Of a stretch of DNA of 64,000 bases, positions 1-58,554 are shown piece by piece. The notes under the pieces are model-generated. The model made no database searches, was not told the origin of the DNA, and was given only the letters and a program-made list of their open reading frames with translations. A program made the translations under genes and the position numbers. Each line of letters opens with the position of its first letter. Position 1 is the stretch's first letter. Source of the stretch: Candidatus Binatia bacterium (GTDB lineage Bacteria; Desulfobacterota; Binatia; UBA9968; JAJDTQ01); contig JAJEAI010000041.1 in assembly GCA_022824205.1 (NCBI GenBank), forward strand, positions 856-64,855, given 5' to 3'.

Positions 1-870
1 GCGTGAGTCCTTCGTGTATCTCTGCTTGACGATGAGCGTCAGGCCGAGCGTCGGACCCAGACCCTCTTGCCGCACGTCCACGTTCGCCCCGCTCCTGACG
101 ATGTGTGCGCGCTCCTTGAAGCGTGCGATCACGGTGTCGACAGCCGAGAGTTGCCCGGGCCAACCGGCGTCCTGGAGCCAGGCGCGCAGTTCCTCCCCCG
201 CCTTGAAGCCCATGACCGCCAGGCGGATGGACCGTTCGCGTGACGGGAAGACACCGAACGAATCCAGGCGCGTATCCTCCGGCTGCGCCAGGTAGACCCG
301 TTCCACGTTCTCCCGTTCGGCGCCGTTCCTCTCCCAACCGACGCAGGACACGAGCGCATCCACCACCGTAACGACGTCATCCACCTGGCCGCCGGCTCCG
401 ACGATCGGGCGTTCGCCGGGGCGCAGGAACATTCCCGGGTGCGTACGCTCCCGGTCCCGGGCCGAGCCGATGTCGTATTCCAGCATCAGCTTGCGGCCGA
501 CGATGTCCCGCAAGGGCGAGACTTCGGCATCCATTTCGCCGAACAACCGCGTGATGGCTACCGCCGTCGCGTCCGCCTCGTCGGTCCGCGCGCGCTCCCG
601 GAAGAACGCCGCCGTTCGGGTGCCGCTCGCCAGGGAGGCGCCGAAGTCGGCCTCCGGCGCCGGCTCATGAAGCGGCAGCTCGAGGCCGAACGGCAGGGCG
701 CCCATGGTAATGGGGAGTCGTGCGGCGCACTCGAGGATGCGCTGCCATTGCGGGTCGCCCACGAGGACAGGCGCAACCCTGTTCCGGAAGTGCCCGAGCA
801 AGTCCGCCATGGTGGCGCCCTCTTGAGCGAGACGCTCCTGGGTCAGCGTGACGGCCTCGTCGATCTCCAT
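1..870 (-). CDS. Hypothetical protein, partial (N-terminal 290 aa; runs off the window start), translationally coupled to the YcaO heterocyclase gene
   Basis: Hand translation of the reverse complement gives an open frame from ATG at 870 (MEIDEAVTLTQERLAQEGATMADLLGHF...AVMGFKAGEELRAWLQDAGWPGQL...) with no stop before position 1. GGAG sits 9 nt downstream of the YcaO stop (880-882), immediately before this ATG. I see no recognisable family motifs. The ORF is absent from the track because it has no stop in the window. Confidence 0.55.
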   Translation of the reverse strand, partial: MEIDEAVTLTQERLAQEGATMADLLGHFRNRVAPVLVGDPQWQRILECAARLPITMGALPFGLELPLHEPAPEADFGASLASGTRTAAFFRERARTDEADATAVAITRLFGEMDAEVSPLRDIVGRKLMLEYDIGSARDRERTHPGMFLRPGERPIVGAGGQVDDVVTVVDALVSCVGWERNGAERENVERVYLAQPEDTRLDSFGVFPSRERSIRLAVMGFKAGEELRAWLQDAGWPGQLSAVDTVIARFKERAHIVRSGANVDVRQEGLGPTLGLTLIVKQRYTKDSR

Positions 871-879
871 GTCGTCTCC

Positions 880-3198
880 TCAAGCGATGACGGGCAAGGG
901 GTTCAAGTCGGCTTCGGCGAGAGGGTGCTCGCGGCGGCCCATGCGCACCGGTACATCGTAAAGGCGCCCGGGTGCGAACCGCGCCCAGAAATGGCGCATG
1001 CCCGGCACCATCACCCGCACCACCGGCATGCCGATGTCGGGCCGGGTCTGGTCCAGCACCAGGAACTCCATCCCCCGGGCTTCCACCAGCCCGCGGCAAA
1101 CCTCCACGTCGGCGCGCGCGTCGGGCGATTCGATCATCGCATAGCTCGACGCCTTGCGCGCGGGAACGCCGTCCGCGGGGGCCAGCCAGGAGCAGTCGGC
1201 CACTCGCGCCGTCCGCCACCACCAGAGAGCCAGCGGGTCATCGATCATGGGCCGGCCCTCGCCGCTCCCGGGACGCGGCAGCCAGGTGAGGCACTGGTTC
1301 AATTCGCAGACCGCTCGCAGCGCCGCGATGCGCGGGTCGGCGTGGGCGCCGGCGCCGTAAATGATGTCCTCGGTCTTCGCTTCCGGCCTGCGTGACAGCG
1401 CCACGAACGCGGGAACACCGATATCCGAGGTGACGTCGAGCATCCACAAGTCCCGCTCGTAACGGGCGTAATGGTCCGCGGCCGTCGCGAGGTACGCGTC
1501 GTCGAAGCTCGCGAGATCCACCGCGGGCACCCGCAGGCGGTTGTACCACCAGATGGCGAACGCATCGCGTTCGGCCAGCTCATAGAAGCCCTGCACGATG
1601 GCCTCTTCCAGCGTATTGCCCGCCGCGCAGCCATTGGAGTCGGCGATCAGGTCCGAGGCGCCGCGCTGTTCGGCCGGCATGCTGTAGAGCATGGACGTCG
1701 GCAGATGGCGATGGCACTGCCGCGTCAGCGACCACACCGGGGTCCAGTCGATTTCGGCGTCCGGGTCGAGACGCGGCGGCACCACGTTGTAGGGATGGCC
1801 GCGCGCGTTGATGCTCTCCGCGTTGTCGAGCTGATGGTCGCTGAAGAGCTGCACGTCGTTGGGATGGATCGCCTCTCCTCCCCCGGCCAGCTCGGAGAAG
1901 CGTTTGCGGACGCGGATCTCGTCGCCGTGAAAGGCGCCCGAATAGCGCTCCACCGCCTCGCACAGCGCGCTGACCTCGGACTGTTCGCGCGTGCTGCCCT
2001 TGCCCGCGCTCTTGCTGCGCAGGCTGCGCCTGAGCGAGGTCAGGCTCCGGCTTCTCATGCCGAGGTTGCTCCCGGCCCAATGGACATGCAGCCAGGTGTC
2101 GGCCTCGCCGGTGGTGCGCGAAAGCCAGGTCACGACACCGCTGATCCGGCTCACCAGGTGGCGGTACTTCGCCAGGGTGACCTCCGGCGCCACGGTGTGC
2201 GCGCCGCCGCTGTTGCGGTGGACCTTGGGACTCGCCTTCAGACGCAACGGCACCGGCGGTCGATCCGGTCGATACAACGCCTCGTCGCCGCAGGCCGGGC
2301 ACTGCGGACGGCGCATCACCCGATGCCGCGAACTCGCGAAGGTGCCGACATCCATCGCGATGGCGTGTTGGTGAATCGGCGCGGCCTCATCCAGCACCAG
2401 CCATTTGACGATCTCCGCCGCCATCAGCCCGTAGAGCGCATCCAGCACCGCGGGCTGCGCCGCGAACGGCTTGAAGGCAGCCTCGTCGCCGGCAACGTTG
2501 CGCAGAAAACCGTGGACCTCCTGATGGTTGCGCAAGCGGTACGCCAGACAGTCCCAGCAAGGTCCCTGTCTGTCCGCGCGAAAGACGGGACCGAACAGCG
2601 CCTCCATGCCCCGCGGCCGCACCAGCGTCCACGGCGTCCTCGCCTCGAGCCGGCGCCGGTTCACTGCCCCAAGGTGTGCGTCGAGATAATCGTCGCAGAC
2701 GACGACGGTGAGCCCGGCATCGCCGGATCCGACACGGGCGCCGCTCTCTTCCAGACGGCGGGTCAGCCGGCCGCCGTCACCCTCCACCGCGACGCGCGTT
2801 TCCGCCAGCTCTTGTTCGACCCGGCGCGGCGACGCGCCGAGCGAAGACCAGTAGGCCGCCCGGCCCCGGTCCATGCCATGGTCGGCGGACACGACATAGC
2901 CCTTGGCGGAGAGCCCGGCCACGGCCGCGAGAACGTCGGCTCCGGCATGGGCGCCGTGAAGGGCCGCGACGATCCCGTCCAGGGCTTGCCGGCCGTCGAG
3001 CAGCGGCAGCAGATCGCGGTACAGCTTGCCGTGCAGCAGAGTGTTGAACGTCTCGGAAACCAGCAGCGTCTGCCGGTCGCCGACCTCGTGGAATTGCAAG
3101 TGCGGCGCAAGCGCGGGGAGCTTGACGAGCCCCTCATCCTCGGGAGTCGTCTTGATCAGGATTCCGCGCCGGGAATTCACGTCCGTCTGGGTCGGCAT
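880..3198 (-). CDS. Fused E1-like (ThiF/MoeB-like, with N-terminal RRE) / YcaO-domain cyclodehydratase, PatD/TruD-like azoline-forming heterocyclase for RiPP biosynthesis
   Basis: 772 aa. YcaO hallmark SAGKGSTREQSEVSALCEAVERYSGAF and a C-terminal proline motif LNPLPVIA. The N-terminal half has an E1-like region (LTVVVCDDYLD, PCWDCLAYRLRNHQE with Cys pairs) and a leading wHTH-like segment (HLQFHEVGDRQTLLVSETFNTLL) typical of a RiPP recognition element. The architecture matches fused C-D heterocyclases. Confidence 0.8.
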   Translation of the reverse strand: MPTQTDVNSRRGILIKTTPEDEGLVKLPALAPHLQFHEVGDRQTLLVSETFNTLLHGKLYRDLLPLLDGRQALDGIVAALHGAHAGADVLAAVAGLSAKGYVVSADHGMDRGRAAYWSSLGASPRRVEQELAETRVAVEGDGGRLTRRLEESGARVGSGDAGLTVVVCDDYLDAHLGAVNRRRLEARTPWTLVRPRGMEALFGPVFRADRQGPCWDCLAYRLRNHQEVHGFLRNVAGDEAAFKPFAAQPAVLDALYGLMAAEIVKWLVLDEAAPIHQHAIAMDVGTFASSRHRVMRRPQCPACGDEALYRPDRPPVPLRLKASPKVHRNSGGAHTVAPEVTLAKYRHLVSRISGVVTWLSRTTGEADTWLHVHWAGSNLGMRSRSLTSLRRSLRSKSAGKGSTREQSEVSALCEAVERYSGAFHGDEIRVRKRFSELAGGGEAIHPNDVQLFSDHQLDNAESINARGHPYNVVPPRLDPDAEIDWTPVWSLTRQCHRHLPTSMLYSMPAEQRGASDLIADSNGCAAGNTLEEAIVQGFYELAERDAFAIWWYNRLRVPAVDLASFDDAYLATAADHYARYERDLWMLDVTSDIGVPAFVALSRRPEAKTEDIIYGAGAHADPRIAALRAVCELNQCLTWLPRPGSGEGRPMIDDPLALWWWRTARVADCSWLAPADGVPARKASSYAMIESPDARADVEVCRGLVEARGMEFLVLDQTRPDIGMPVVRVMVPGMRHFWARFAPGRLYDVPVRMGRREHPLAEADLNPLPVIA

Positions 3199-3295
3199 TC
3201 GTGGTTTCCGCGCCGTATCAGCCAGTGCAGGGTTCGGTTAACCCCGAGGTTTGAAAGTTGTTTGCGAAGAGCGATCCGAAGCACGCCCCCCGAAA

Positions 3296-3323
3296 CGTCA
3301 TTCCCGCGAAAGCGGGAATGACG
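3296..3323. repeat. REP-like perfect palindrome cgtcattcccgc-gaaa-gcgggaatgacg (12-bp stem, GAAA loop); single-unit copy of the window's dispersed repeat family
   Basis: Perfect inverted repeat seen directly. Same core as the copies at 8648, 56265 and 58387. It lies in the 150-nt gap between the AlkB-fusion stop and the YcaO start. Confidence 0.8.
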
Positions 3324-3350
3324 TACCCGCCAGTGCTCCTCGTCGCGCCT

Positions 3351-5747
3351 TCACGCGCGGGAAAGGAGCGTATCGATCTCGGCCGCGGCGCGGGACGCGG
3401 TTTCGGTGACCGCCGTCTTCAGCGCGTCGAAGTCCTCATGCCCGCAGGCGCTCGCCACAAGGGACTGGACCTTCGGCCCCGCCGCGGCCGCGTCAAAGCC
3501 CTCCCCGCCCACAAGGTGCGTGATGCCCTGCAAATCGCGCCACAGAGACGCGGCTTGCGCCAGCGGCTCCGCGCCCGCGCCGTGAAGCAGCGCGGCTGCG
3601 GTCGGGGCCGGATGGTCGAGGGCCGCAGCGCCGTTCGTCAACTGCAGGAAGCGCGCGGTCCGCTCCACGTCATCCAGTCCGCCGCGCATGAGGGCGTACG
3701 TGGACACGCCGGGTTCGGCGGCGGCTTGCCGTCGCTCGCGCGGCCGGCCCGTCAGCGACTCGCTCCCATCCCATCCGGCCAGGACTTCGCGCCGTGCTTC
3801 ATCGAAGCGGCGGCCGATGTCGGAGTCGCCGCACTCGAACACGCAGCGCGCCCGGGTGAGCGGGGGGATTCCGCCGGAAGCAGGCCTTCCGCCATGCTCG
3901 GCCAACTCGGCAAGGGGCAGATCCGGAAGGGGATTGGCGTCGGGCGTGATGGGCGAGAACAACAGGCTGTCCCGCGCCAGGTCGGTGAGGGTCTCACGGA
4001 AACCGCGGCACAGGCGTTCATGTTCGCCACCCATCCCGCCGTCATGGACGAACATCATGCCGACGGCAACGCCGGGATGAACCTCCCGGCTGGCGAGATC
4101 GCCCAGGAATATCGCGGCGACCCCGCCCCCGCCCAAGGGTCCGAAGCGCTCGACCACGTCCGCCGCCACGGCGCCGAGCAGGGTCGCGATCGACGCTTCG
4201 GCGAGACTGGACAGCGCGGACTTCGCCTCGGCCGGCGACAGGTTTCCGCGCACCACGTGCATGGCGACCTGAAAGGCCTTGTCGTTGGACCAGTTGCGCA
4301 CGATCTCCGCGCTTTCCCTTGCGTCCGCCGTGGGGATTTCGGCGATCAGGTCCTTCATCTCGGGGACGCCCATTTCGACCGTCCAATAGAGTCGCGCAAG
4401 CCCGCGGCGCGCGATCGCCTCGGATTCGCGATCCGGCCCGAATCCCTTCGGCAAGTCAAGATCGGTGAACTCCCGGTCCTGCAAGCTGTCCAGAAGCTCC
4501 GGATTGCGTTCGATCCATTTGGCGAGGCGCGGGGCGGCGCCGTAGATTTCGACGATGGCCTCGAAGGCTTCCGGCCGCGCCGCGGAGATCGGGCTGTCGT
4601 AGGCGCTCCAGTCATCGATCTCCGGGTAGAAATGCGCGCGCCATTGATCCACCAACGGATCCATCTTCTCGAACCAGCGCCTGGGCCGCAGCACGATGTT
4701 CATCATGTCGGCGTAGGTGCCCGGCAACACCGGCGCTTCATCCGCGCCGCGGACCTGGAGCAGCGGGTAGTGGCGAGCCGCCGCCGCATGATGATCCGCA
4801 TGGCGCTGCATGTTGAAGAACATCCAGTTGCTGTACTTCCAGTCCGCGTTCCAGGAATGGCGCGGCATCACTTTTTCCCAACGGCCGTTGGACTGACGCA
4901 CCCGGCGCAGACCGTAGTGCTGGAAGTAGTTGCTGATCTTCATGGAAAAGACGCAACTCAGGCCGAGGAAGACGAAGACCAGCACCGCCAGGATACCGCT
5001 CATCCACCACACCAGCCCATACCAGAACAATAGAGCGAGCCCGTAGCGCCAGAACTGATTGCTGTAATGCCACCGCGGCAGCCCGCGCCGCGCCAGTCGC
5101 TCGCCGGCGAATTCCCAGGAGTTGGTGACGTTGCTGACGATCTCCCTGGGGAAATAGCGCCAGAAACTCTCACCCTTCGGAGCGGACCCCACGTCGAGCG
5201 GCGTGCCCACCTTGGCGTGGTGGATGTAGACATGCTCCGTGGAGTATTGCGGATACGAGGCCGAGGCCAGCAGGAATTCTCCGAGCCGCCGTTCCCAGGC
5301 GGAGCGCCGGTGGACCAGTTCGTGACCGACCACGAAGACAGCCTGCGCTTCCATGGTCAGGAGGCTCGCCAGGATCACGGCTTCCCAGACCGCGAACTGA
5401 TTCGCGACAAGGATCTGCCACATGCCGAGAATCAGCACCGGCGGCCACAGAAACGCCCAGGTCCAGACCGGCAGATTGTGCCAGACCAGCCGGCGTTCCG
5501 GCGTGTTCTCCGGGTCCATGTTGCGGCCGTCGGGACCGAGCGCCCGATCAAGCGGCCCCACGACGCTCATGAAGAGGAATGGCGGCAACAGCCACCAGCC
5601 GCCATACATCGCGGCGGCAAGAAGCAGAGGGAAAATGCCCAGTGGCAGGTAGTGCGGCAGGGCGTTACGAATCGAGGGCTCGATCCTCCGCGTGACGTCA
5701 GCCTTGTCCGGGCTCAAGCCACCACCTGCGGCTGCATCCTGCGGCAT
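3351..5747 (-). CDS. AlkB-type integral-membrane alkane 1-monooxygenase / fatty-acid-desaturase-family hydroxylase fused to a C-terminal GlnE-like (adenylyltransferase-type) nucleotidyltransferase-like domain, possibly catalytically degenerate
   Basis: 798 aa. The N-terminal ~390 aa has His boxes HELVHRRS, EHVYIHH and NMQRHADHHA, and an AlkB-like C-terminal tail LPGTYADMMNIVLRPRRWFEKMDPLVDQW. The C-terminal ~400 aa contains ERFGPLGGGGVAAIFLGDLASREVHPGVAVGMMFVHDGG, which resembles the GlnE/GlnD NTase motif (G-K-L-G-G-R-E...S-D-x-D-L) but has AVG where the metal-binding D-x-D should be. It is one frame with no internal stop. Confidence 0.6.
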   Translation of the reverse strand: MPQDAAAGGGLSPDKADVTRRIEPSIRNALPHYLPLGIFPLLLAAAMYGGWWLLPPFLFMSVVGPLDRALGPDGRNMDPENTPERRLVWHNLPVWTWAFLWPPVLILGMWQILVANQFAVWEAVILASLLTMEAQAVFVVGHELVHRRSAWERRLGEFLLASASYPQYSTEHVYIHHAKVGTPLDVGSAPKGESFWRYFPREIVSNVTNSWEFAGERLARRGLPRWHYSNQFWRYGLALLFWYGLVWWMSGILAVLVFVFLGLSCVFSMKISNYFQHYGLRRVRQSNGRWEKVMPRHSWNADWKYSNWMFFNMQRHADHHAAAARHYPLLQVRGADEAPVLPGTYADMMNIVLRPRRWFEKMDPLVDQWRAHFYPEIDDWSAYDSPISAARPEAFEAIVEIYGAAPRLAKWIERNPELLDSLQDREFTDLDLPKGFGPDRESEAIARRGLARLYWTVEMGVPEMKDLIAEIPTADARESAEIVRNWSNDKAFQVAMHVVRGNLSPAEAKSALSSLAEASIATLLGAVAADVVERFGPLGGGGVAAIFLGDLASREVHPGVAVGMMFVHDGGMGGEHERLCRGFRETLTDLARDSLLFSPITPDANPLPDLPLAELAEHGGRPASGGIPPLTRARCVFECGDSDIGRRFDEARREVLAGWDGSESLTGRPRERRQAAAEPGVSTYALMRGGLDDVERTARFLQLTNGAAALDHPAPTAAALLHGAGAEPLAQAASLWRDLQGITHLVGGEGFDAAAAGPKVQSLVASACGHEDFDALKTAVTETASRAAAEIDTLLSRA

Positions 5748-5900
5748 AGCGGACCATACCCCCCCGGTAACGGTCCGATTTTATCACCGGGTACCGTAAC
5801 CCACAAACACGTCAAGCCCCCAAGGTGCACGACAAGAAGATGGTGAGAGGGGCAGAGGTGAAGGAGGGCACGCCGGGGTCGGTGTCCCGTGTTCAAGTTC

Positions 5901-6647
5901 TCACGGCATCACCATCCCGCCGTTCACGTGCAGGGTGGCGCCGGTGACGTAGTCGCTCTCGTCGCAGGCGAGAAAGAAGATGCCGTCGGCGATCTCCTCG
6001 GGCATGGCGGCACGGCCCATGGGGAGGCCGCCGGAGAGCTTCGCCCACTCGTCTTCGTCGTACTTGCCGCGCACGCGGTCGGTGCCGGTGAGACCGGGGG
6101 CGATGGTGTTGACGCGGATGCCGTGGGGCGCCAGCTCGCTGGCCAGGGACTTGGAGAAGGCGATGACGGCGGCCTTGGAGGCGGCGTAGTGAGTGCGCTC
6201 GCCGCCGCCGGTGACGCCGAAGTTGGAGGCGGTGTTGACGATGACGCCGTGGCCGGCCTGCTTCATGGGGGCGATGACCGCCTGAGAGCAGAGGAAGGTG
6301 GTCTTGAGGTTCAGGTCCAGGCACTCCTTCCATTGAGCGGGGGTCACGTCCTGGATCGCGCCCTTGTGGAAGGTGCCGCCGGCGAGGTTCACGAGGACGT
6401 CGATGCGGCCGCAGGCAGACAGGATGCGCTCGAAAGCGGCGGTCACCTCCGACTTGTCGGTCAGGTCCGCCTGGATGAAGCGGCCTTCCACCTGCTTCGT
6501 TTCGAGGAGGGACGCGGTGGCCGCGCCGGCTTCGGCGTCCCGGTCGAGGATGACGGGCGCGTAGCCCTCTTCGCTGAAACGGAGCACCGCGGCGCGGCCG
6601 ATGCCCCTGGCGCCTCCGGTGACGACAACCACTTTCGCATCCATCAT
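5901..6647 (-). CDS. SDR-family short-chain dehydrogenase/reductase (FabG-like)
   Basis: VVVTGGARGIGRA glycine-rich NAD(P)-binding motif and catalytic YAASKAAV (YxxxK). 248 aa. Confidence 0.85.
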   Translation of the reverse strand: MMDAKVVVVTGGARGIGRAAVLRFSEEGYAPVILDRDAEAGAATASLLETKQVEGRFIQADLTDKSEVTAAFERILSACGRIDVLVNLAGGTFHKGAIQDVTPAQWKECLDLNLKTTFLCSQAVIAPMKQAGHGVIVNTASNFGVTGGGERTHYAASKAAVIAFSKSLASELAPHGIRVNTIAPGLTGTDRVRGKYDEDEWAKLSGGLPMGRAAMPEEIADGIFFLACDESDYVTGATLHVNGGMVMP

Positions 6648-6747
6648 AAGTCCTTTGTTCCGTGAAAACCCCGGCCGGCAAGGTTACCCGCGCTCATCAG
6701 GGGTTCCCTTGGCCACCGGGCGGTCCTCCAACGCCTCGTTCACGACG

Positions 6748-7497
6748 TTACTGCATGATCGCGCCACCATTGACCACCACGGTCTGCCCGGTGACGAACC
6801 GGCCCCGGTCGCTGGCGAGGAAGACCGCCGCCTTGGCCATGTCGCGCGGCTGTCCGATGCGGCCAAGGGGAATCCGGGCGGCGCTGGCGTACAACTCCTC
6901 TTCCGTGCGGTGACCGCGGGGCTGGGCGGTGTCGGACACGCCGGGGCAGATGCAGTTGACGGCGATGCCGGCGGGGGCCAGCTCCAGGGCGAGGCTCTTG
7001 GTGAAGCCGATGATGCCGCCCTTGGAGGCGGCGTAATGGGCGCCGTTGTCCGCCCCCTGGAGCCCCCGGCCGGAGGTGATGCTGATGATGCGCCCGCTCC
7101 GCTGTGCCAGCATGTGCGGCGTCACGGCGCGGCTGCACAGGAACGTCCCGAACAGGTTGGTGCCGATGACCCGTTCCCACTCGTCCTCGGCCATGTCCTC
7201 CACCGTGCTGGTGGGGTAGATGCCGGCGTTGTTGACCAGGATGTCGACCTTGCCGAAGCGGCCGAGGCAGGCTTCCACCATGGTGTCCACGGAGGCGTCG
7301 CGGGAGACGTCGGTGGCGTGGGCGAGAGCGGTGCCGCCGGCCTCCTCGATCCGGCGTTGTACCCTGGCGGCGGTGTCTTCGCGCAACTCCGCCACCACGA
7401 CGTTCGCGCCCTCTTCCGCCATGACCAGGGCGATGGCCTCGCCGATCCCCTGCCCGCTTCCGGTGACAATGGCCGTGCGGCCTTCGAGTCTGCGCAT
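6748..7497 (-). CDS. SDR-family short-chain dehydrogenase/reductase
   Basis: Start re-derived to MRRLEGRTAIVTGSGQGIGEA (ATG at 7497); YAASKGGI catalytic motif. 249 aa. The track ORF 6748..7728 carries a spurious N-terminal extension. Confidence 0.85.
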   Translation of the reverse strand: MRRLEGRTAIVTGSGQGIGEAIALVMAEEGANVVVAELREDTAARVQRRIEEAGGTALAHATDVSRDASVDTMVEACLGRFGKVDILVNNAGIYPTSTVEDMAEDEWERVIGTNLFGTFLCSRAVTPHMLAQRSGRIISITSGRGLQGADNGAHYAASKGGIIGFTKSLALELAPAGIAVNCICPGVSDTAQPRGHRTEEELYASAARIPLGRIGQPRDMAKAAVFLASDRGRFVTGQTVVVNGGAIMQ

Positions 7498-7761
7498 GAG
7501 GATGCTATTTAGAACCTTCCAGCCGCGTTGGCAACATGGCCCCACCTCGCCCCCTCCTGGATACCCGCTTCGGACGGGGTCGAGGGCAAGCCTGCGCGGG
7601 AATGACGGAAGGAAGAGCGGGAATTGACGGAGGAGAGCACCGTCACGACCGGGGAGCGCGCGGCAACGGCCGGGAGAAGAACGCGGAAGCGGCCGAGGAG
7701 AAAGCGCGGGAGGGACCGGAGGAGGCACCGGGACGATGTTTCACCGAGGAGACAGGACAGC

Positions 7762-8556
7762 ATGAACACGGCAGTGCCGCTCGACATCCGCAACGTCTCC
7801 TACTCGGCGGGGCAGCGCACGATTCTCGACTCCATCGAGTGGACCGTGCGCCAGGGCGAACACTGGGTGATCCTGGGACCCAACGGCTCGGGCAAGACCA
7901 CGCTGCTGAAGATGGCGTGCGGGTACCTGTGGCCGAACCAGGGGGGCACCGTCTACCGGAACGGCAGCCGGCGGGTGGATCTTCGCGAGCTGCGCAAGGG
8001 CATCGGCTGGGTCACGGTCACCCTGGCCTCGCAGATCCCCGCCCGGGAACCCGCGCTGCGAACGGTGGTGTCGGGAAAATTCGCGCAGATCGGCCTGCTG
8101 GAGATGTCGACGGTCCGGCCCGTGGAGGAGGACTTCGCGCGGGCCGAGACTCTCATGGAACGCATGGGCTGCCTGCGCCTGAAGGACCAGGGGTTTGGAA
8201 CCCTTTCCCAGGGGGAGCAGCAGAAGGTGCTCATCAGCAGGGCATTGATGGCCCGTCCCTACCTGATGTTCCTGGACGAGCCGTGCGCGGGCCTGGATCC
8301 GGGGGCGCGGGAGAGCCTGCTGGCCGCGCTCCAGGAACTGGGGCGCACCACGGACGCCACCGCCCTGGTCTACGTCACCCACCACATCGAGGAGATCCTG
8401 CCCGCCTTCGAGAAGACGCTGGTGCTCAAGGGCGGCCGCGTGTTCCGCTCGGGCGAGACGGGAAAGGTCATCACCGAGACGCTGCTGGAAGAGCTTTACG
8501 AGACGCCGCTCGCGCTGAGGCGGAGCAACGGGCGGTACTGGACCGTGGGTGGGTGA
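7762..8556 (+). CDS. ABC transporter ATP-binding protein (single ATPase, YlmA/ModF-like), no adjacent permease
   Basis: Walker A GPNGSGKTTLLK, signature LSQGEQQKVLISRAL, Walker B LMFLDEP. Start taken at MNTAVPLDIRNVSY (ATG 7762) rather than the track's 7624. Confidence 0.8.
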   Translation: MNTAVPLDIRNVSYSAGQRTILDSIEWTVRQGEHWVILGPNGSGKTTLLKMACGYLWPNQGGTVYRNGSRRVDLRELRKGIGWVTVTLASQIPAREPALRTVVSGKFAQIGLLEMSTVRPVEEDFARAETLMERMGCLRLKDQGFGTLSQGEQQKVLISRALMARPYLMFLDEPCAGLDPGARESLLAALQELGRTTDATALVYVTHHIEEILPAFEKTLVLKGGRVFRSGETGKVITETLLEELYETPLALRRSNGRYWTVGG

Positions 8557-8647
8557 ACGGTGACGCCCATGCCCCTGGTGTCGCGTCGTGTCCAATGAAT
8601 TCAATCAGTTACAGACGTCCGTCTTCGTCACTCCCGGCCCTCCGATC

Positions 8648-8915
8648 CGTCATTCCCGCGAAAGCGGGAATCCAGGTGGGGTGGGGCGGGGAAACGCCGC
8701 TGCGGCGCCCCGCCACCACCCCTGGATTCCCGCTTTCGCGGGAATGACGGATTCGCGTTTAGTCGCCAGGAAGCAGCGTATTGACACAGCCTGTTCCGCG
8801 GGAATGTCGTTCTGTTACCTAGTTGCGTGTTACGTAGTTGCGCTGTGAATCTGACACAGCCTGTTTCGTGGGAATGGCATGATTTATACTCGGTCGCATC
8901 GAGGTGGGAATGACG
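8648..8915. repeat. REP/MITE-like repeat cluster: ~100-bp nested inverted repeat (8648-8749) plus 'tgacacagcc...ccgcgggaatg' modules (8781-8808, 8850-8881, 8903-8915)
   Basis: cgtcattcccgcgaaagcgggaatccagg ... cctggattcccgctttcgcgggaatgacg enclose a GC-rich inner hairpin (ggggtggggcgggg / ccccgccaccacccc). Track ORFs 8588..8848 and 8628..9044 are just translations of these repeats (SRESGNPGG, IPAKAG peptides). Confidence 0.8.
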
Positions 8916-8931
8916 GAGAGAGGAGGAACCC

Positions 8932-9705
8932 GTGAAGGTCGTCACATGGAATCTGAACTCCATTCGGGCGCGGGAGGAGCGTTTGCTGAGCTGGCTGTCG
9001 CGCCACGACCCCGACGTCGTGTGCCTGCAGGAGACCAAGGTCACCGATGAACAGTTTCCCCACGAGGTCTTGAAGGACCAGGGTTATCACGCGGCCGTGC
9101 ACGGCCAGCGGACCTACAACGGGGTGGCGATCCTGTCGCGGGAGCCCATCGAGGACGTGCGCATCGGCTTCGACGACGGCGCGGACGATCCCCAGGCGCG
9201 GTGCATCTGCGGCGTGGTCCGCGGCATCCGGTTCATCTCGGTGTATGTCCCCAACGGCTCCACGGTGGAGTCGGACAAGTACGTCTACAAGCGCGAATGG
9301 CTGGAGCGGCTGATGCCGTACCTGGACAAGACCCACGTCCCGGGGACGCCACTGCTGATTTCCGGCGACTTCAACATCGCGCCCGACGTGGCGGACGTAG
9401 CCGAGCCGGACGCGTGGCGCGACACCGTGCTGTTCAACCCCGACATGACCGGCGTGATGACGCGGCTCTCGGACTGGGGGCTCCAGGACGTGGTGCGGCG
9501 GCACAATCCCGACCCGGGGCTCTACTCGTGGTGGGACTACCGCCAGCTTGCGTTCCCGCGCAACCAGGGGCTGCGCATCGACCACATCCTGGCCACGCCG
9601 GACCTCGCGGCGCGGTCGACCTCGGCCGGCGTGGACCGGGACGAACGCAAGGGCTCGAAACCGTCGGATCATGCGCCGGTGTTGGCGGAGCTGGACTGGC
9701 CGTAG
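8932..9705 (+). CDS. xth: Exodeoxyribonuclease III (AP endonuclease)
   Basis: MKVVTWNLNSIRAR, DVVCLQETK and the C-terminal SDHAPV motif. GTG start preceded by AGGAGGA. Confidence 0.9.
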   Translation: MKVVTWNLNSIRAREERLLSWLSRHDPDVVCLQETKVTDEQFPHEVLKDQGYHAAVHGQRTYNGVAILSREPIEDVRIGFDDGADDPQARCICGVVRGIRFISVYVPNGSTVESDKYVYKREWLERLMPYLDKTHVPGTPLLISGDFNIAPDVADVAEPDAWRDTVLFNPDMTGVMTRLSDWGLQDVVRRHNPDPGLYSWWDYRQLAFPRNQGLRIDHILATPDLAARSTSAGVDRDERKGSKPSDHAPVLAELDWP

Positions 9706-56135: not shown

Positions 56136-56388
56136 GTCATTCCCACGAAACCGGCTGTGTCAAAACACTATCTGAGAGAGGCAACAACCCACCGAAACGT
56201 CATTGATATGAAAATAAATCTTGTTCAATGATTTTTGGTAGTTATGGAATCCCGCTACACCCCACCGAGTCATTCCCGCGGAAGCGGGAATCCAGGCGGG
56301 GTGGGGCCGGGCAATGAGGTCGCCACACCCCCACCCCTGGATTCCCGCCCCCGATCGGGGTCGGGGGCAAGCTTCCGCGGGAATGACG
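56136..56388. repeat. REP/MITE-like repeat cluster with a 45-bp AT-rich insert
   Basis: gtcattcccacgaaaccggctgtgtcaa (56136-56163); the AT-rich segment cattgatatgaaaataaatcttgttcaatgatttttggtagttatgg (56199-56245); and the nested IR gtcattcccgcggaagcgggaatccagg...cctggattcccgcc...ccgcgggaatgacg (56270-56388). Confidence 0.8.
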
Positions 56389-58330: not shown

Positions 58331-58554
58331 CGTCATTCCCGCTTTCCAGGCTGTGTCAATACTCATGTGGCACGGATCCCTCGAATCGTCATTCCCGCGG
58401 AAGCGGGAATCCAGGCGGGGTGAGGCGGGGGAATACGCCGTTTTGCCCCTCTCCGCCCCTGGATTCCCGCTTCCGCGGGAATGACGATTCGGGGTGTTGG
58501 TGCCAGTTCTTGTCCACGTGACGTTTGACACAGCCCCTTCCGCGGGAATGACGT
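58331..58554. repeat. REP/MITE-like repeat cluster between tal and tkt
   Basis: cgtcattcccgctttccaggctgtgtcaa (58331-58359), the nested ~100-bp IR (58387-58486), and gtttgacacagccccttccgcgggaatgacg (58524-58554). Confidence 0.8.

What the first reader, a model, noticed from the sequence alone, without database searches (positions are those of the whole stretch)
3351..7497. AlkB-type membrane alkane hydroxylase fused to a degenerate GlnE-like nucleotidyltransferase domain, flanked by two SDRs and the YcaO gene
A single 798-aa frame joins a complete AlkB-like di-iron hydroxylase (HELVHRRS / EHVYIHH / NMQRHADHHA, plus the conserved LPGTYADMMNIVLRPRRWFEKMDPLVDQW tail) to a ~400-aa extension. The extension aligns to the GlnE/GlnD NTase motif (LGDLASREV..GVAVGMMFVHD versus LGKLGGRELNFSSDIDLIFLY) but lacks the metal-binding D-x-D. 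I am not aware of an AlkB-GlnE-like fusion; AlkB C-terminal fusions are normally rubredoxin. An AT-rich patch with a TGATAAAAT-like -10 candidate lies ~30 nt upstream of its ATG (5770-5800), suggesting its own promoter. Two SDRs directly upstream and the YcaO directly downstream are all on the same strand. This hints at an oxidative lipid or hydrocarbon-tailoring module next to a peptide heterocyclase.
Basis: partly seen in the sequence, partly recalled or inferred. Interest (0 to 1): 0.7.

Follow-up and report, generated by a model that had tools for sequence, protein, structure and literature searches.

The report
AlkB oxidase fused to dead GlnE domain
The gene is real and widespread: a membrane alkane-hydroxylase-type iron enzyme carrying an inactivated GlnE-like domain, and it is a conserved, uncharacterised member of a peptide natural-product gene cluster (the 'srp' cluster) shared by sponge-symbiont bacteria of many phyla.

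Summary
Window 3351-5747(-) is one intact 798-aa ORF. Its N-terminal half is a true AlkB, with all nine iron-binding histidines invariant in 103 homologues. Its C-terminal half has the fold of the adenylylating half of GlnE but lacks the catalytic carboxylates.

It is not an assembly artefact. Hundreds of about 800-aa homologues exist, including 196 genome loci in at least seven phyla at 70% identity or more.

65 of 80 related loci also encode the SrpE precursor (…AISAG|LCCCW). These are therefore srp proteusin clusters. The window holds only their edge.

Most loci also carry an NHLP-domain/class II terpene-cyclase-like gene and lipid-export genes.

Best reading: a membrane tailoring oxygenase acting on the hydrophobic, probably isoprenoid, part of the maturing peptide, with the dead GlnE domain as a docking or regulatory module. 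The substrate and the role of that domain are inferred, not shown.

The parts
3351..5747 (-). 798-aa ORF: AlkB-type membrane di-iron oxygenase fused to a catalytically degenerate GlnE (adenylylation-half) domain. The stop codon is 3351-3353.
   Evidence: AF2 model has pLDDT 87 and pTM 0.84. Foldseek hits AlkB 8f6t/8sbb and GlnE 3k7d/1v4a.
4662..5747 (-). AlkB domain (residues 1-362). It has six long predicted helices. The nine iron-ligand histidines are H142, H146, H172, H176, H177, H277, H316, H319 and H320.
   Evidence: 8f6t at 1e-44 over residues 52-368. All nine His are invariant in 103 homologues. Helices come from the model.
4188..4661 (-). Junction plus the first helical subdomain of the GlnE-like part (residues 363-520). 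This is the most conserved stretch of the whole protein across clades.
   Evidence: Mean pairwise identity is 0.72 here against 0.63 for the AlkB core over 103 sequences. It aligns to residues about 569-725 of a real GlnE, P0161.
3354..4187 (-). NTase-like core and C-terminal helical subdomain of the GlnE-like part (residues 521-798).
   Evidence: Pairwise identity is lower here, 0.50-0.51.
4041..4103 (-). Degenerate NTase motif G549-D569 (GDLASREVHPGVAVGMMFVHD). The D-x-D is replaced by A561-V-G563.
   Evidence: Alignment to E. coli GlnE [21 protein letters not shown] and to GlnE P0161. The downstream DxRLRP motif is absent in all fusions read.
880..3198 (-). SrpC-type cyclodehydratase: winged-helix domain, E1-like domain and YcaO domain (772 aa), directly downstream in the same operon.
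   Evidence: Pfam YcaO 2e-95 and WHD. TIGR03604 at 1.6e-81 and TIGR03882 at 3.5e-39. It is 75-83% identical to the YcaO genes that sit beside SrpE precursors.
1..870 (-). First 290 codons of the third operon gene (372 aa in relatives). It is an ABBA/PT-barrel prenyltransferase-fold protein and is cut by the window edge.
3297..3322 (.). Perfect 11-bp-stem palindrome (GTCATTCCCGC-GAAA-GCGGGAATGAC) in the fusion-YcaO spacer. It is a copy of a repeated element of this genome, and it sits in a spacer of 152 nt where relatives have 32 nt.
   Evidence: 6 matches in the window, 0 expected.
5778..5786 (-). TGATAAAAT, an extended -10-like sequence 30 nt upstream of the ATG. Candidate only.
   Evidence: sequence. 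One search found no full sigma-70 consensus site in 3000-8000.

Best explanation
**What it is.** The ORF is a membrane-bound tailoring oxygenase of an srp-type (sponge-derived RiPP proteusin) biosynthetic gene cluster.

**Shown**
- The N-terminal domain is an AlkB-family enzyme with a complete nine-histidine di-iron site.
- The C-terminal domain is a copy of the adenylylating half of GlnE that has lost its catalytic carboxylates.
- The gene is co-operonic with the SrpC-type YcaO cyclodehydratase and with a protein of aromatic-prenyltransferase fold. This holds across homologues down to about 37% identity.
- Related loci encode the SrpE precursor (leader ...ITEEQLEAISAG, core LCCCW or variants) and NHLP-type ABC exporters.
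- They usually also encode an NHLP-domain/class II terpene-cyclase-like protein and MMPL/LolA-like lipid-export genes.

**Inferred**
- The YcaO makes thiazolines in the short Cys-rich core. That step is known from the literature for SrpC.
- The PT-fold protein attaches an isoprenoid.
- The AlkB domain takes the resulting hydrocarbon tail from the membrane side into its channel. It then hydroxylates or otherwise oxidises a terminal or allylic carbon. The electron donor is not encoded in the cluster.
- The dead GlnE domain sits on the cytoplasmic face, where rubredoxin is fused in other AlkBs. It acts as a non-catalytic docking or regulatory module, possibly still binding a ligand, and holds the soluble partners or the peptide at the membrane enzyme.
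For: **Intact AlkB**
- 8f6t at 1e-44.
- All nine His invariant in 103 sequences.
- AlkB fold in the model.

**GlnE-like domain**
- The whole 430-aa domain matches real GlnE: P0161 at 35% identity and 2.4e-45, residues 569-1006 of 1013.
- Fold hits to 3k7d, 1v4a and DrrA.
- D-x-D and DxRLRP are lost.

**Operon**
- The YcaO gene follows the fusion on the same strand in 79 of 80 genome loci, most often 32 nt away.
- The 372-aa gene follows the YcaO, with a 9-nt spacer in about 65 of 75 loci.
- 6 of 7 sampled distant homologues keep fusion + YcaO + a 372-375-aa gene.

**srp identity**
- The SrpE precursor ending in LCCCW is found in 65 of 80 loci.
- Variant cores LSCCV and LCCCGI occur in distant clades.
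- NHLP exporters TIGR03796/03797 are present.
- A Trp-halogenase-like gene is present in 41 loci.
- The literature describes srp, SrpC, SrpE and SrpI.

**Isoprenoid theme**
- PT-barrel fold of the 372-aa protein.
- The 433-aa neighbour matches drimenol synthase at 1.3e-6 and SHC. Its invariant DLDS[ST] aligns to the synthase's DLDTT.
- Accessory genes in other clades: CMAS-type methyltransferases, Lcp-like, amine-oxidase/CrtI-like, MMPL with sterol-sensing domain, LolA-like, DUF1302-like.

**Other**
- SrpC alone is poorly active in E. coli (PMC10286304). That fits missing partners.
Against: - No experiment links this protein to the peptide, and the native srp product is unknown.
- No prenyl-diphosphate synthase or electron carrier (rubredoxin) is encoded in any of the loci.
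- A PT fold does not prove activity. PatF, an inactive homologue (from my own knowledge), is among the hits.
- The cores lack a conserved aromatic acceptor (LCCCW, LSCCL, LCCCG).
- 6 of 23 YcaO-anchored metagenome loci with long flanks lack the fusion within 6 kb. Their cores are similar. The fusion is therefore frequent but not obligatory, or it lies further away.
- The same dead GlnE-like domain is fused to an RND permease in a non-RiPP locus. This argues against a role specific to the NHLP leader.
- The window itself lacks the terpene-cyclase-like gene, the precursor and the exporters. For this genome they are assumed to lie beyond the window's left edge.
Confidence: 0.5

Rival explanations
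1. The AlkB domain oxidises the peptide itself rather than a lipid tail. Two options are a desaturase-type thiazoline-to-thiazole dehydrogenation, standing in for the missing FMN-dependent SagB-type dehydrogenase, or hydroxylation of the N-terminal Leu side chain of the core.
For: No SagB-type dehydrogenase was seen in the conserved cluster. The fusion sits directly before the YcaO gene. All cores keep an N-terminal Leu (or Met/Arg) and a Cys/Ser run. The wider FA_desaturase superfamily does both desaturation and hydroxylation (my own knowledge of the family).
Against: The sequence is closest to AlkB proper, which hydroxylates hydrocarbon chains reached from the membrane. A prenyltransferase-fold gene and a terpene-cyclase-like gene in the same cluster provide a more natural hydrocarbon substrate. 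Clusters without the fusion have the same kinds of core.
Confidence: 0.17
2. It is a lipid or hydrocarbon hydroxylase acting on free membrane lipids or isoprenoids, not on the peptide. It might make a lipid precursor, remodel the envelope for self-protection, or work with the MMPL/LolA-like export genes. It would be merely co-inherited with the RiPP genes.
For: AlkB family membership. MMPL with sterol-sensing domain, LolA-like and DUF1302-like genes are in many loci. The fusion is absent from some otherwise similar clusters. One orphan copy has no YcaO.
Against: Fixed 32-nt and 9-nt spacing with the YcaO and PT-fold genes persists across phyla and down to about 37% identity. The orphan copy shares the upstream genes of cluster-bearing relatives, so it looks like a deletion remnant.
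Confidence: 0.15
3. The main role is structural or regulatory. The protein would anchor the YcaO/prenyltransferase-like complex at the membrane near the exporters. The GlnE-derived domain would sense a cellular signal, such as a nucleotide, glutamine or PII as in GlnE, and gate activity.
For: The junction/helical subdomain is the most conserved part of the protein. The glycine-rich GDLAS[RG]E loop is kept although the catalytic Asp are lost. The same domain is appended to an RND pump. SrpC is poorly behaved alone.
Against: All nine iron ligands are invariant, which points to retained catalysis. No PII or glutamine-sensing evidence exists here.
Confidence: 0.1
4. The fusion is an assembly, frameshift or gene-calling artefact that joins two separate genes.
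For: None found.
Against: The ORF is continuous. The same architecture and length occur in 120 + 120 listed protein clusters and 196 genome loci, including closed chromosomes. A confident single-chain model was obtained with pTM 0.84. The junction is the best-conserved segment.
Confidence: 0.01

Closest known systems
AlkB alkane 1-monooxygenase (FtAlkB and the natural FtAlkB-AlkG rubredoxin fusion, PDB 8sbb / 8f6t)
   Same: Same fold and the same nine-His di-iron site. The AlkB-specific NYxxHYGL and LPxxY motifs are present. It also carries a C-terminal cytoplasmic fusion starting at the same point of the chain.
   Different: The fused domain is not an electron carrier but a dead nucleotidyltransferase. 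No rubredoxin or reductase is nearby. The genomic context is a RiPP cluster, not alkane catabolism.
GlnE, glutamine synthetase adenylyltransferase, C-terminal adenylylation half (PDB 3k7d); also DrrA/SidM AMPylase
   Same: Homologous over the whole roughly 430-aa domain, including the helical subdomains. It is 35% identical to a real GlnE from a MAG. The predicted fold is the same.
   Different: Only one of GlnE's two halves is present. D-x-D is replaced by A-x-G in the window protein, by A-x-D/E in most close relatives and by E-x-D in a distant clade. DxRLRP is absent in all. It is fused to a membrane enzyme, and nothing links it to glutamine synthetase.
srp (sponge-derived RiPP proteusin) gene cluster of Nguyen et al. 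2021 (SrpE precursor, SrpC YcaO, SrpI brominase)
   Same: Related loci encode the precursor with core LCCCW and leader motif ITEEQL, a fused YcaO, a Trp-halogenase homologue and NHLP exporters. They occur in MAGs of many phyla.
   Different: The papers I could read describe only SrpC, SrpE and SrpI. I found no domain analysis or role for this gene, for the 372-aa gene or for the 433-aa gene. The original paper was not available to me.
Prenylated RiPPs and their ABBA prenyltransferases (cyanobactin PagF/PatF family; lanthipeptide prenyltransferase MppC, PMC12715784; PalQ, PMC10853753)
   Same: A PT-barrel protein is encoded next to a YcaO in a RiPP cluster. PagF, PatF and DciF are among the structural matches.
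   Different: There is no detectable sequence similarity: no Pfam, NCBIfam or PDB sequence hit. Activity and acceptor are unknown. I know of no AlkB-type oxidase reported with these systems (from memory).

Membership tests
AlkB-type alkane hydroxylase (PF00487, AlkB subfamily) | Nine conserved histidines in four motifs (HxxxH; EHxxxHH; NYxxH; HxxHH) that bind the di-iron centre | tested here: met
   H142, H146, H172, H176, H177, H277, H316, H319 and H320 are present and invariant in 103 homologues. They align to FtAlkB.
AlkB-type alkane hydroxylase (PF00487, AlkB subfamily) | Significant sequence and fold similarity to structurally characterised AlkB, with six membrane helices | tested here: met
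   8f6t at 1e-44 and 8sbb at 7e-37. Foldseek 9e-15, TM 0.72-0.78 normalised by target. Six long helices in the model.
AlkB-type alkane hydroxylase (PF00487, AlkB subfamily) | Dedicated electron transfer partner (rubredoxin fused or encoded nearby; rubredoxin reductase) | tested here: not met
   No rubredoxin-like ORF in the window or in any fetched locus by motif scan. The fused domain has no CxxC pairs.
AlkB-type alkane hydroxylase (PF00487, AlkB subfamily) | Terminal hydroxylation of n-alkanes | not testable with these tools
   Needs enzymology.
GlnE adenylyltransferase | GlnE nucleotidyltransferase fold with flanking helical subdomains | tested here: met
   Pfam GlnE above gathering score. 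Full-domain match to real GlnE. Foldseek hits 3k7d and 1v4a.
GlnE adenylyltransferase | Catalytic G-x-L-G-x-R-E ... D-x-D metal-binding motif | tested here: not met
   GDLASRE is kept, but the D-x-D positions are A561-V-G563.
GlnE adenylyltransferase | Conserved D-x-R-L-R-P segment downstream of the NTase sheet | tested here: not met
   Real GlnE has YDVDMRLRPSG. The fusions have LLFSPITPD or NLLFAP.
GlnE adenylyltransferase | Two tandem homologous halves (deadenylylating and adenylylating) | tested here: not met
   Only the C-terminal half is present (GlnE residues about 569-1006).
srp-type proteusin RiPP cluster | SrpC-type fused E1-like/YcaO cyclodehydratase | tested here: met
   Window 880-3198(-). 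It is 75-83% identical to YcaO genes adjacent to SrpE.
srp-type proteusin RiPP cluster | NHLP-leader precursor with short Cys-rich core (…AISAG|LCCCW) | tested here: inconclusive
   Not in the 64-kb window. In 65 of 80 homologous loci it lies just beyond the 372-aa gene, which the window's left edge cuts. It is therefore expected outside the window.
srp-type proteusin RiPP cluster | NHLP-type C39-peptidase/ABC exporters and Trp-6-brominase SrpI | tested here: inconclusive
   Absent from the window. Present in related loci: exporters in 68 loci, halogenase-like in 41.
ABBA aromatic prenyltransferase (for the 372-aa operon partner) | PT-barrel of five alpha-alpha-beta-beta repeats | tested here: met
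ABBA aromatic prenyltransferase (for the 372-aa operon partner) | Prenyl diphosphate binding and transfer | not testable with these tools
   Many invariant Arg/Lys/Tyr are present, but no coordinates were available to place them in the barrel.

The most novel reading that the evidence does not exclude
The srp peptides, which a metatranscriptome preprint reports as highly transcribed in sponge-symbiont genome bins of several phyla, would be terpenoid-peptide hybrids rather than bare brominated azoline pentapeptides. A new sequence-orphan clade of ABBA prenyltransferases would lipidate the core. A class II terpene cyclase carrying its own NHLP 'leader' domain would cyclise the chain. An AlkB-family membrane di-iron enzyme would oxidise it, which as far as I know would be the first of its family in RiPP maturation. 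That enzyme would be tethered to its partners through a GlnE-derived pseudoenzyme domain that also occurs on RND pumps.
Probability: 0.3. Interest if true: 0.85.

Novelty: new variant of a known kind. Interest (0 to 1): 0.65.

Why it matters
- **An open product.** The srp cluster is reported in sponges across oceans and, in one preprint, its precursor genes are highly transcribed. Its final product and role are still unknown. Only the YcaO, the precursor and the brominase have been studied.
- **New testable steps.** Three more conserved genes now have concrete predictions: an intact AlkB-type oxygenase with a dead GlnE domain, a prenyltransferase-fold protein and a terpene-cyclase-like protein. 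These give mass shifts to look for. They may also explain why SrpC behaves poorly alone.
- **AlkB biology.** This is a third kind of C-terminal fusion, one that is not an electron carrier. It places the family in peptide natural-product chemistry.
- **Pseudoenzymes.** Half of a nitrogen-regulation enzyme has been reused as a module on two unrelated membrane proteins.

Tried and rejected
**Rejected**
- Assembly or frameshift artefact, because of conservation.
- SDRs as part of the system: homologues in 1 of 141 loci.
- A redox role for the C-terminal domain through conserved cysteines. C580 and C768 are also present in real GlnE, and there are no CxxC pairs. The same domain sits on an RND pump, which needs no electrons.

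**Searched, nothing found**
- Rubredoxin genes in all loci.
- The precursor, exporters, halogenase and terpene-cyclase-like gene in the 64-kb window. Only the triad is present.
- A link between core sequence and presence of the fusion.
- Sequence searches for the 372-aa protein in Pfam, NCBIfam and PDB. Only the fold search worked.
- A full sigma-70 promoter.

**Literature**
- The original srp paper (PMC8780398) and the mpr paper (PMC9746716) are not held. I could not see how the authors labelled this gene.
- Searches combining proteusin with AlkB, desaturase, adenylyltransferase, prenyltransferase or terpene cyclase found no description.

**Could not do**
- A look-up of the exact 788-aa database twin (P0001) found no contig.
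Domain interfaces and channel residues could not be examined.

Full report
**1. The observation**

Window 3351-5747 on the minus strand is one uninterrupted 798-codon ORF.
- Pfam finds FA_desaturase at residues 120-331 (8e-27) and GlnE PF03710 at residues 464-568 (7e-6, above the gathering score).
- NCBIfam's GlnE model PRK14108 matches at 6.7e-21 in three stretches.
- Against solved structures, residues 52-368 match the AlkB of Fontimonas thermophila (8f6t, 1e-44).
- The C-terminal part matches the E. coli GlnE adenylylation domain (3k7d, 1.7e-4).

Two SDR genes (5901-6647 and 6748-7497) lie upstream. A winged-helix/E1-like/YcaO gene (880-3198) lies downstream, on the same strand. TGATAAAAT sits 30 nt before the ATG, but no full sigma-70 consensus site was found.

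**2. Is the fusion real?**

Yes.
- A search of 5.8 billion proteins lists 120 clusters at 72-100% identity, almost all 787-813 aa.
- A profile built from distant members lists another 120 at about 800 aa.
- One genome per species holds 196 loci.
- The junction and the helical subdomain after it (residues 363-520) are the best-conserved part of the protein. Mean pairwise identity is 0.72 there, against 0.63 for the AlkB core.
- An AlphaFold model built on 103 sequences has mean pLDDT 87 and pTM 0.84.
- Foldseek returns AlkB (8f6t, 8sbb), both halves of GlnE (3k7d, 1v4a) and the GlnE-like AMPylase DrrA.

**3. Anatomy of the two domains**

*AlkB domain.* All nine iron-ligand histidines (H142, H146, H172, H176, H177, H277, H316, H319, H320) are invariant in 103 homologues. 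The AlkB domain is therefore very probably catalytic.

*GlnE-like domain.*
- It is homologous to the adenylylating half of real GlnE over its full length. An example is P0161, a bifunctional GlnE from MAGs: 35% identity, 2.4e-45, residues 569-1006 of 1013.
- Real GlnE reads GKLGSRE…SSDLDL. The window protein reads GDLASRE…GVAVGM (D to A and D to G).
- Most close relatives have A-I-D/E. A more distant clade has E-L-D.
- The DxRLRP segment of GlnE is absent in every fusion read.

The domain is thus a pseudoenzyme that keeps the glycine-rich loop. Two of its three conserved cysteines are shared with real GlnE, and there are no CxxC pairs. A redox-carrier role is therefore unlikely.

**4. Context**

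I clustered ORFs from 80 related genome loci. With the fusion on the plus strand, the order recurs across these groups:
- Thermodesulfobacteriota and other "Deltaproteobacteria" MAGs
- Binatia
- Acidobacteriota
- Alpha- and Gammaproteobacteria
- Nitrospirota
- Nitrospinota

The recurrent gene order is:
1. a truncated NHLP HlyD-like gene
2. a C39-peptidase ABC exporter
3. a second ABC exporter
4. a 433-aa gene
5. the fusion
6. the YcaO gene
7. a 372-aa gene

These are often followed by LolA-like, DUF1302-like, Trp-halogenase-like and MMPL genes.

The spacing is close to fixed:
- The fusion stop to the YcaO start is most often 32 nt.
- The YcaO stop to the 372-aa start is 9 nt in about 65 of 75 loci.

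In 65 of 80 loci a small gene just beyond the 372-aa gene, usually on the opposite strand, encodes …ITEEQLEAISAG|LCCCW. This is the SrpE precursor of the published srp cluster. In that system SrpC makes three thiazolines and SrpI brominates the Trp.

Homologues down to about 37% identity keep the fusion/YcaO/372-aa trio, with cores LSCCV or LCCCGI. One of seven sampled is an orphan that looks like a deletion remnant.

Searching from the YcaO side in metagenomes gave 23 loci with at least 5.9 kb of flank:
- 17 have the fusion within 6 kb.
- 6 do not, although they keep the 372-aa homologue and similar cores.

The fusion is therefore a frequent but not universal member, or it lies further away in those six.

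**5. What the window holds**

Only the trio is present: the fusion, the YcaO gene and the first 290 codons of the 372-aa gene, which the left edge cuts. The precursor and exporters are expected beyond that edge.

The two SDRs are local neighbours only. A homologue occurs in 1 of 141 related loci.

The fusion-YcaO spacer is 152 nt here. It contains a perfect palindrome that belongs to a repeated element of this genome.

**6. The partners**

*The 372-aa protein.*
- It has no Pfam, NCBIfam or PDB sequence match.
- A model of a close homologue (pLDDT 87, pTM 0.88) shows five alpha-alpha-beta-beta repeats.
- All 50 listed Foldseek hits are aromatic prenyltransferases.

*The 433-aa gene.* It is absent from the window.
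- It has an NHLP-leader-like N-terminal domain (TIGR03793, 3e-13).
- Its C-terminal domain matches drimenol synthase (1.3e-6) and squalene-hopene cyclase.
- Its invariant DLDS[ST] aligns with the synthase's DLDTT acid motif.

*Accessory genes in other clades.* These include CMAS-type methyltransferases, an Lcp-like protein, amine-oxidase/CrtI-like proteins, Rieske oxygenases and MMPL transporters.

Taken together, the cluster looks built to attach, reshape, oxidise and export a hydrophobic, probably isoprenoid, group on a very short azoline peptide.

**7. Mechanism**

*Shown:*
- an intact AlkB
- a dead GlnE half
- a conserved operon with the YcaO and a PT-fold protein
- srp cluster membership of the family

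*Inferred:*
- The AlkB domain oxidises the hydrocarbon part of the lipidated peptide from the membrane side.
- The GlnE-derived domain occupies the cytoplasmic position where rubredoxin is fused in other AlkBs (8f6t is such a fusion). It would dock partners or sense a ligand.

The same dead domain is fused to an RND permease next to a membrane-fusion protein in a non-RiPP locus. This argues for a general module on membrane proteins rather than a leader-specific reader.

No electron donor is encoded nearby.

The rivals are direct oxidation of the peptide, action on free lipids, and a mainly scaffolding or regulatory role. None is excluded.

**8. Comparison and novelty**

A review of AlkB fusions lists only rubredoxin and ferredoxin/reductase fusions (PMC8918992). 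The srp papers I could read deal with SrpC, SrpE and SrpI. A 2025 survey speaks of 'several genes of unknown function' in such clusters (PMC11832590). I could not read the original 2021 paper.

By position, with one gene between the YcaO and the precursor, the fusion would be the gene immediately upstream of srpC.

I file it as a new variant of a known kind: an AlkB-family enzyme with a new pseudoenzyme fusion in a known but largely unexplored RiPP cluster.

**9. Horizontal spread**

Identity of 70-89% between phyla, together with conserved intergenic spacing, indicates horizontal transfer of the cluster. The literature's statement that srp clusters are spread through the sponge microbiome agrees with this.

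That the MAGs are sponge-derived rests on isolate names and on that literature. I did not check sample metadata.

Noticed in passing
window 3297-3322, 8649-8674, 8723-8748, 56269-56294, 58388-58413, 58460-58485: A GC-rich palindrome (ATTCCCGC-GAAA-GCGGGAAT core) recurs six times in the window against none expected. Two pairs are in opposed orientation about 72-74 bp apart, like a REP/BIME or MITE-type element. One copy sits in the fusion-YcaO spacer.
   Followed up: partly
L013:8599-9915 (+) and homologues in 65 of 80 loci; absent from the window: A 433-aa protein joins an NHLP leader-like domain to a class II terpene-cyclase-like domain. It matches drimenol synthase 9mhs at 1.3e-6, and its invariant DLDS[ST] aligns to DLDTT. 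This is an enzyme carrying a RiPP 'leader' domain.
   Followed up: partly
L085:10001-14578 (protein P0177, 1525 aa): The same degenerate GlnE-like domain (motif GAAGRRE…PLEL) is fused to the C-terminus of an RND efflux permease. That gene lies next to a membrane-fusion protein gene, in a locus with no RiPP genes.
   Followed up: partly
window 1-870 (-) and P0418 family: The third operon gene belongs to a family of 823 'hypothetical' proteins with no sequence-family match. It is predicted with high confidence to have the ABBA prenyltransferase barrel.
   Followed up: yes
L071:3264-7980 (+): In one Gammaproteobacteria MAG the fusion and the YcaO gene read as a single 1571-aa ORF. The last 20 residues of the fusion are replaced. 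This is either a natural three-part fusion or a sequencing error.
   Followed up: no
L117, L124, L130, L087 (metagenome loci): In divergent clusters the fusion gene changes position. It lies between the YcaO and the 372-aa gene in L117. It is on the opposite strand in L124 and L130. In L087 it is several kb downstream. L130 has a core RCCCCW, and L131 carries two precursors (LCCCW and MCCCGI).
   Followed up: no
L143:13193-14419; L083, L142, L144, L145: Distant clades of the cluster carry CMAS-type methyltransferases, FAD_binding_4 oxidases, amine-oxidase/CrtI-like proteins and an MPAB_Lcp_cat (latex-clearing-protein-like) gene next to the trio. All of these families are typical of lipid or isoprenoid chemistry.
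   Followed up: no
window 7536-8747 (+) and 8884-9672 (-): Two long ORFs beyond the SDRs have no Pfam match. In this 67% GC sequence they may be spurious or novel.
   Followed up: no
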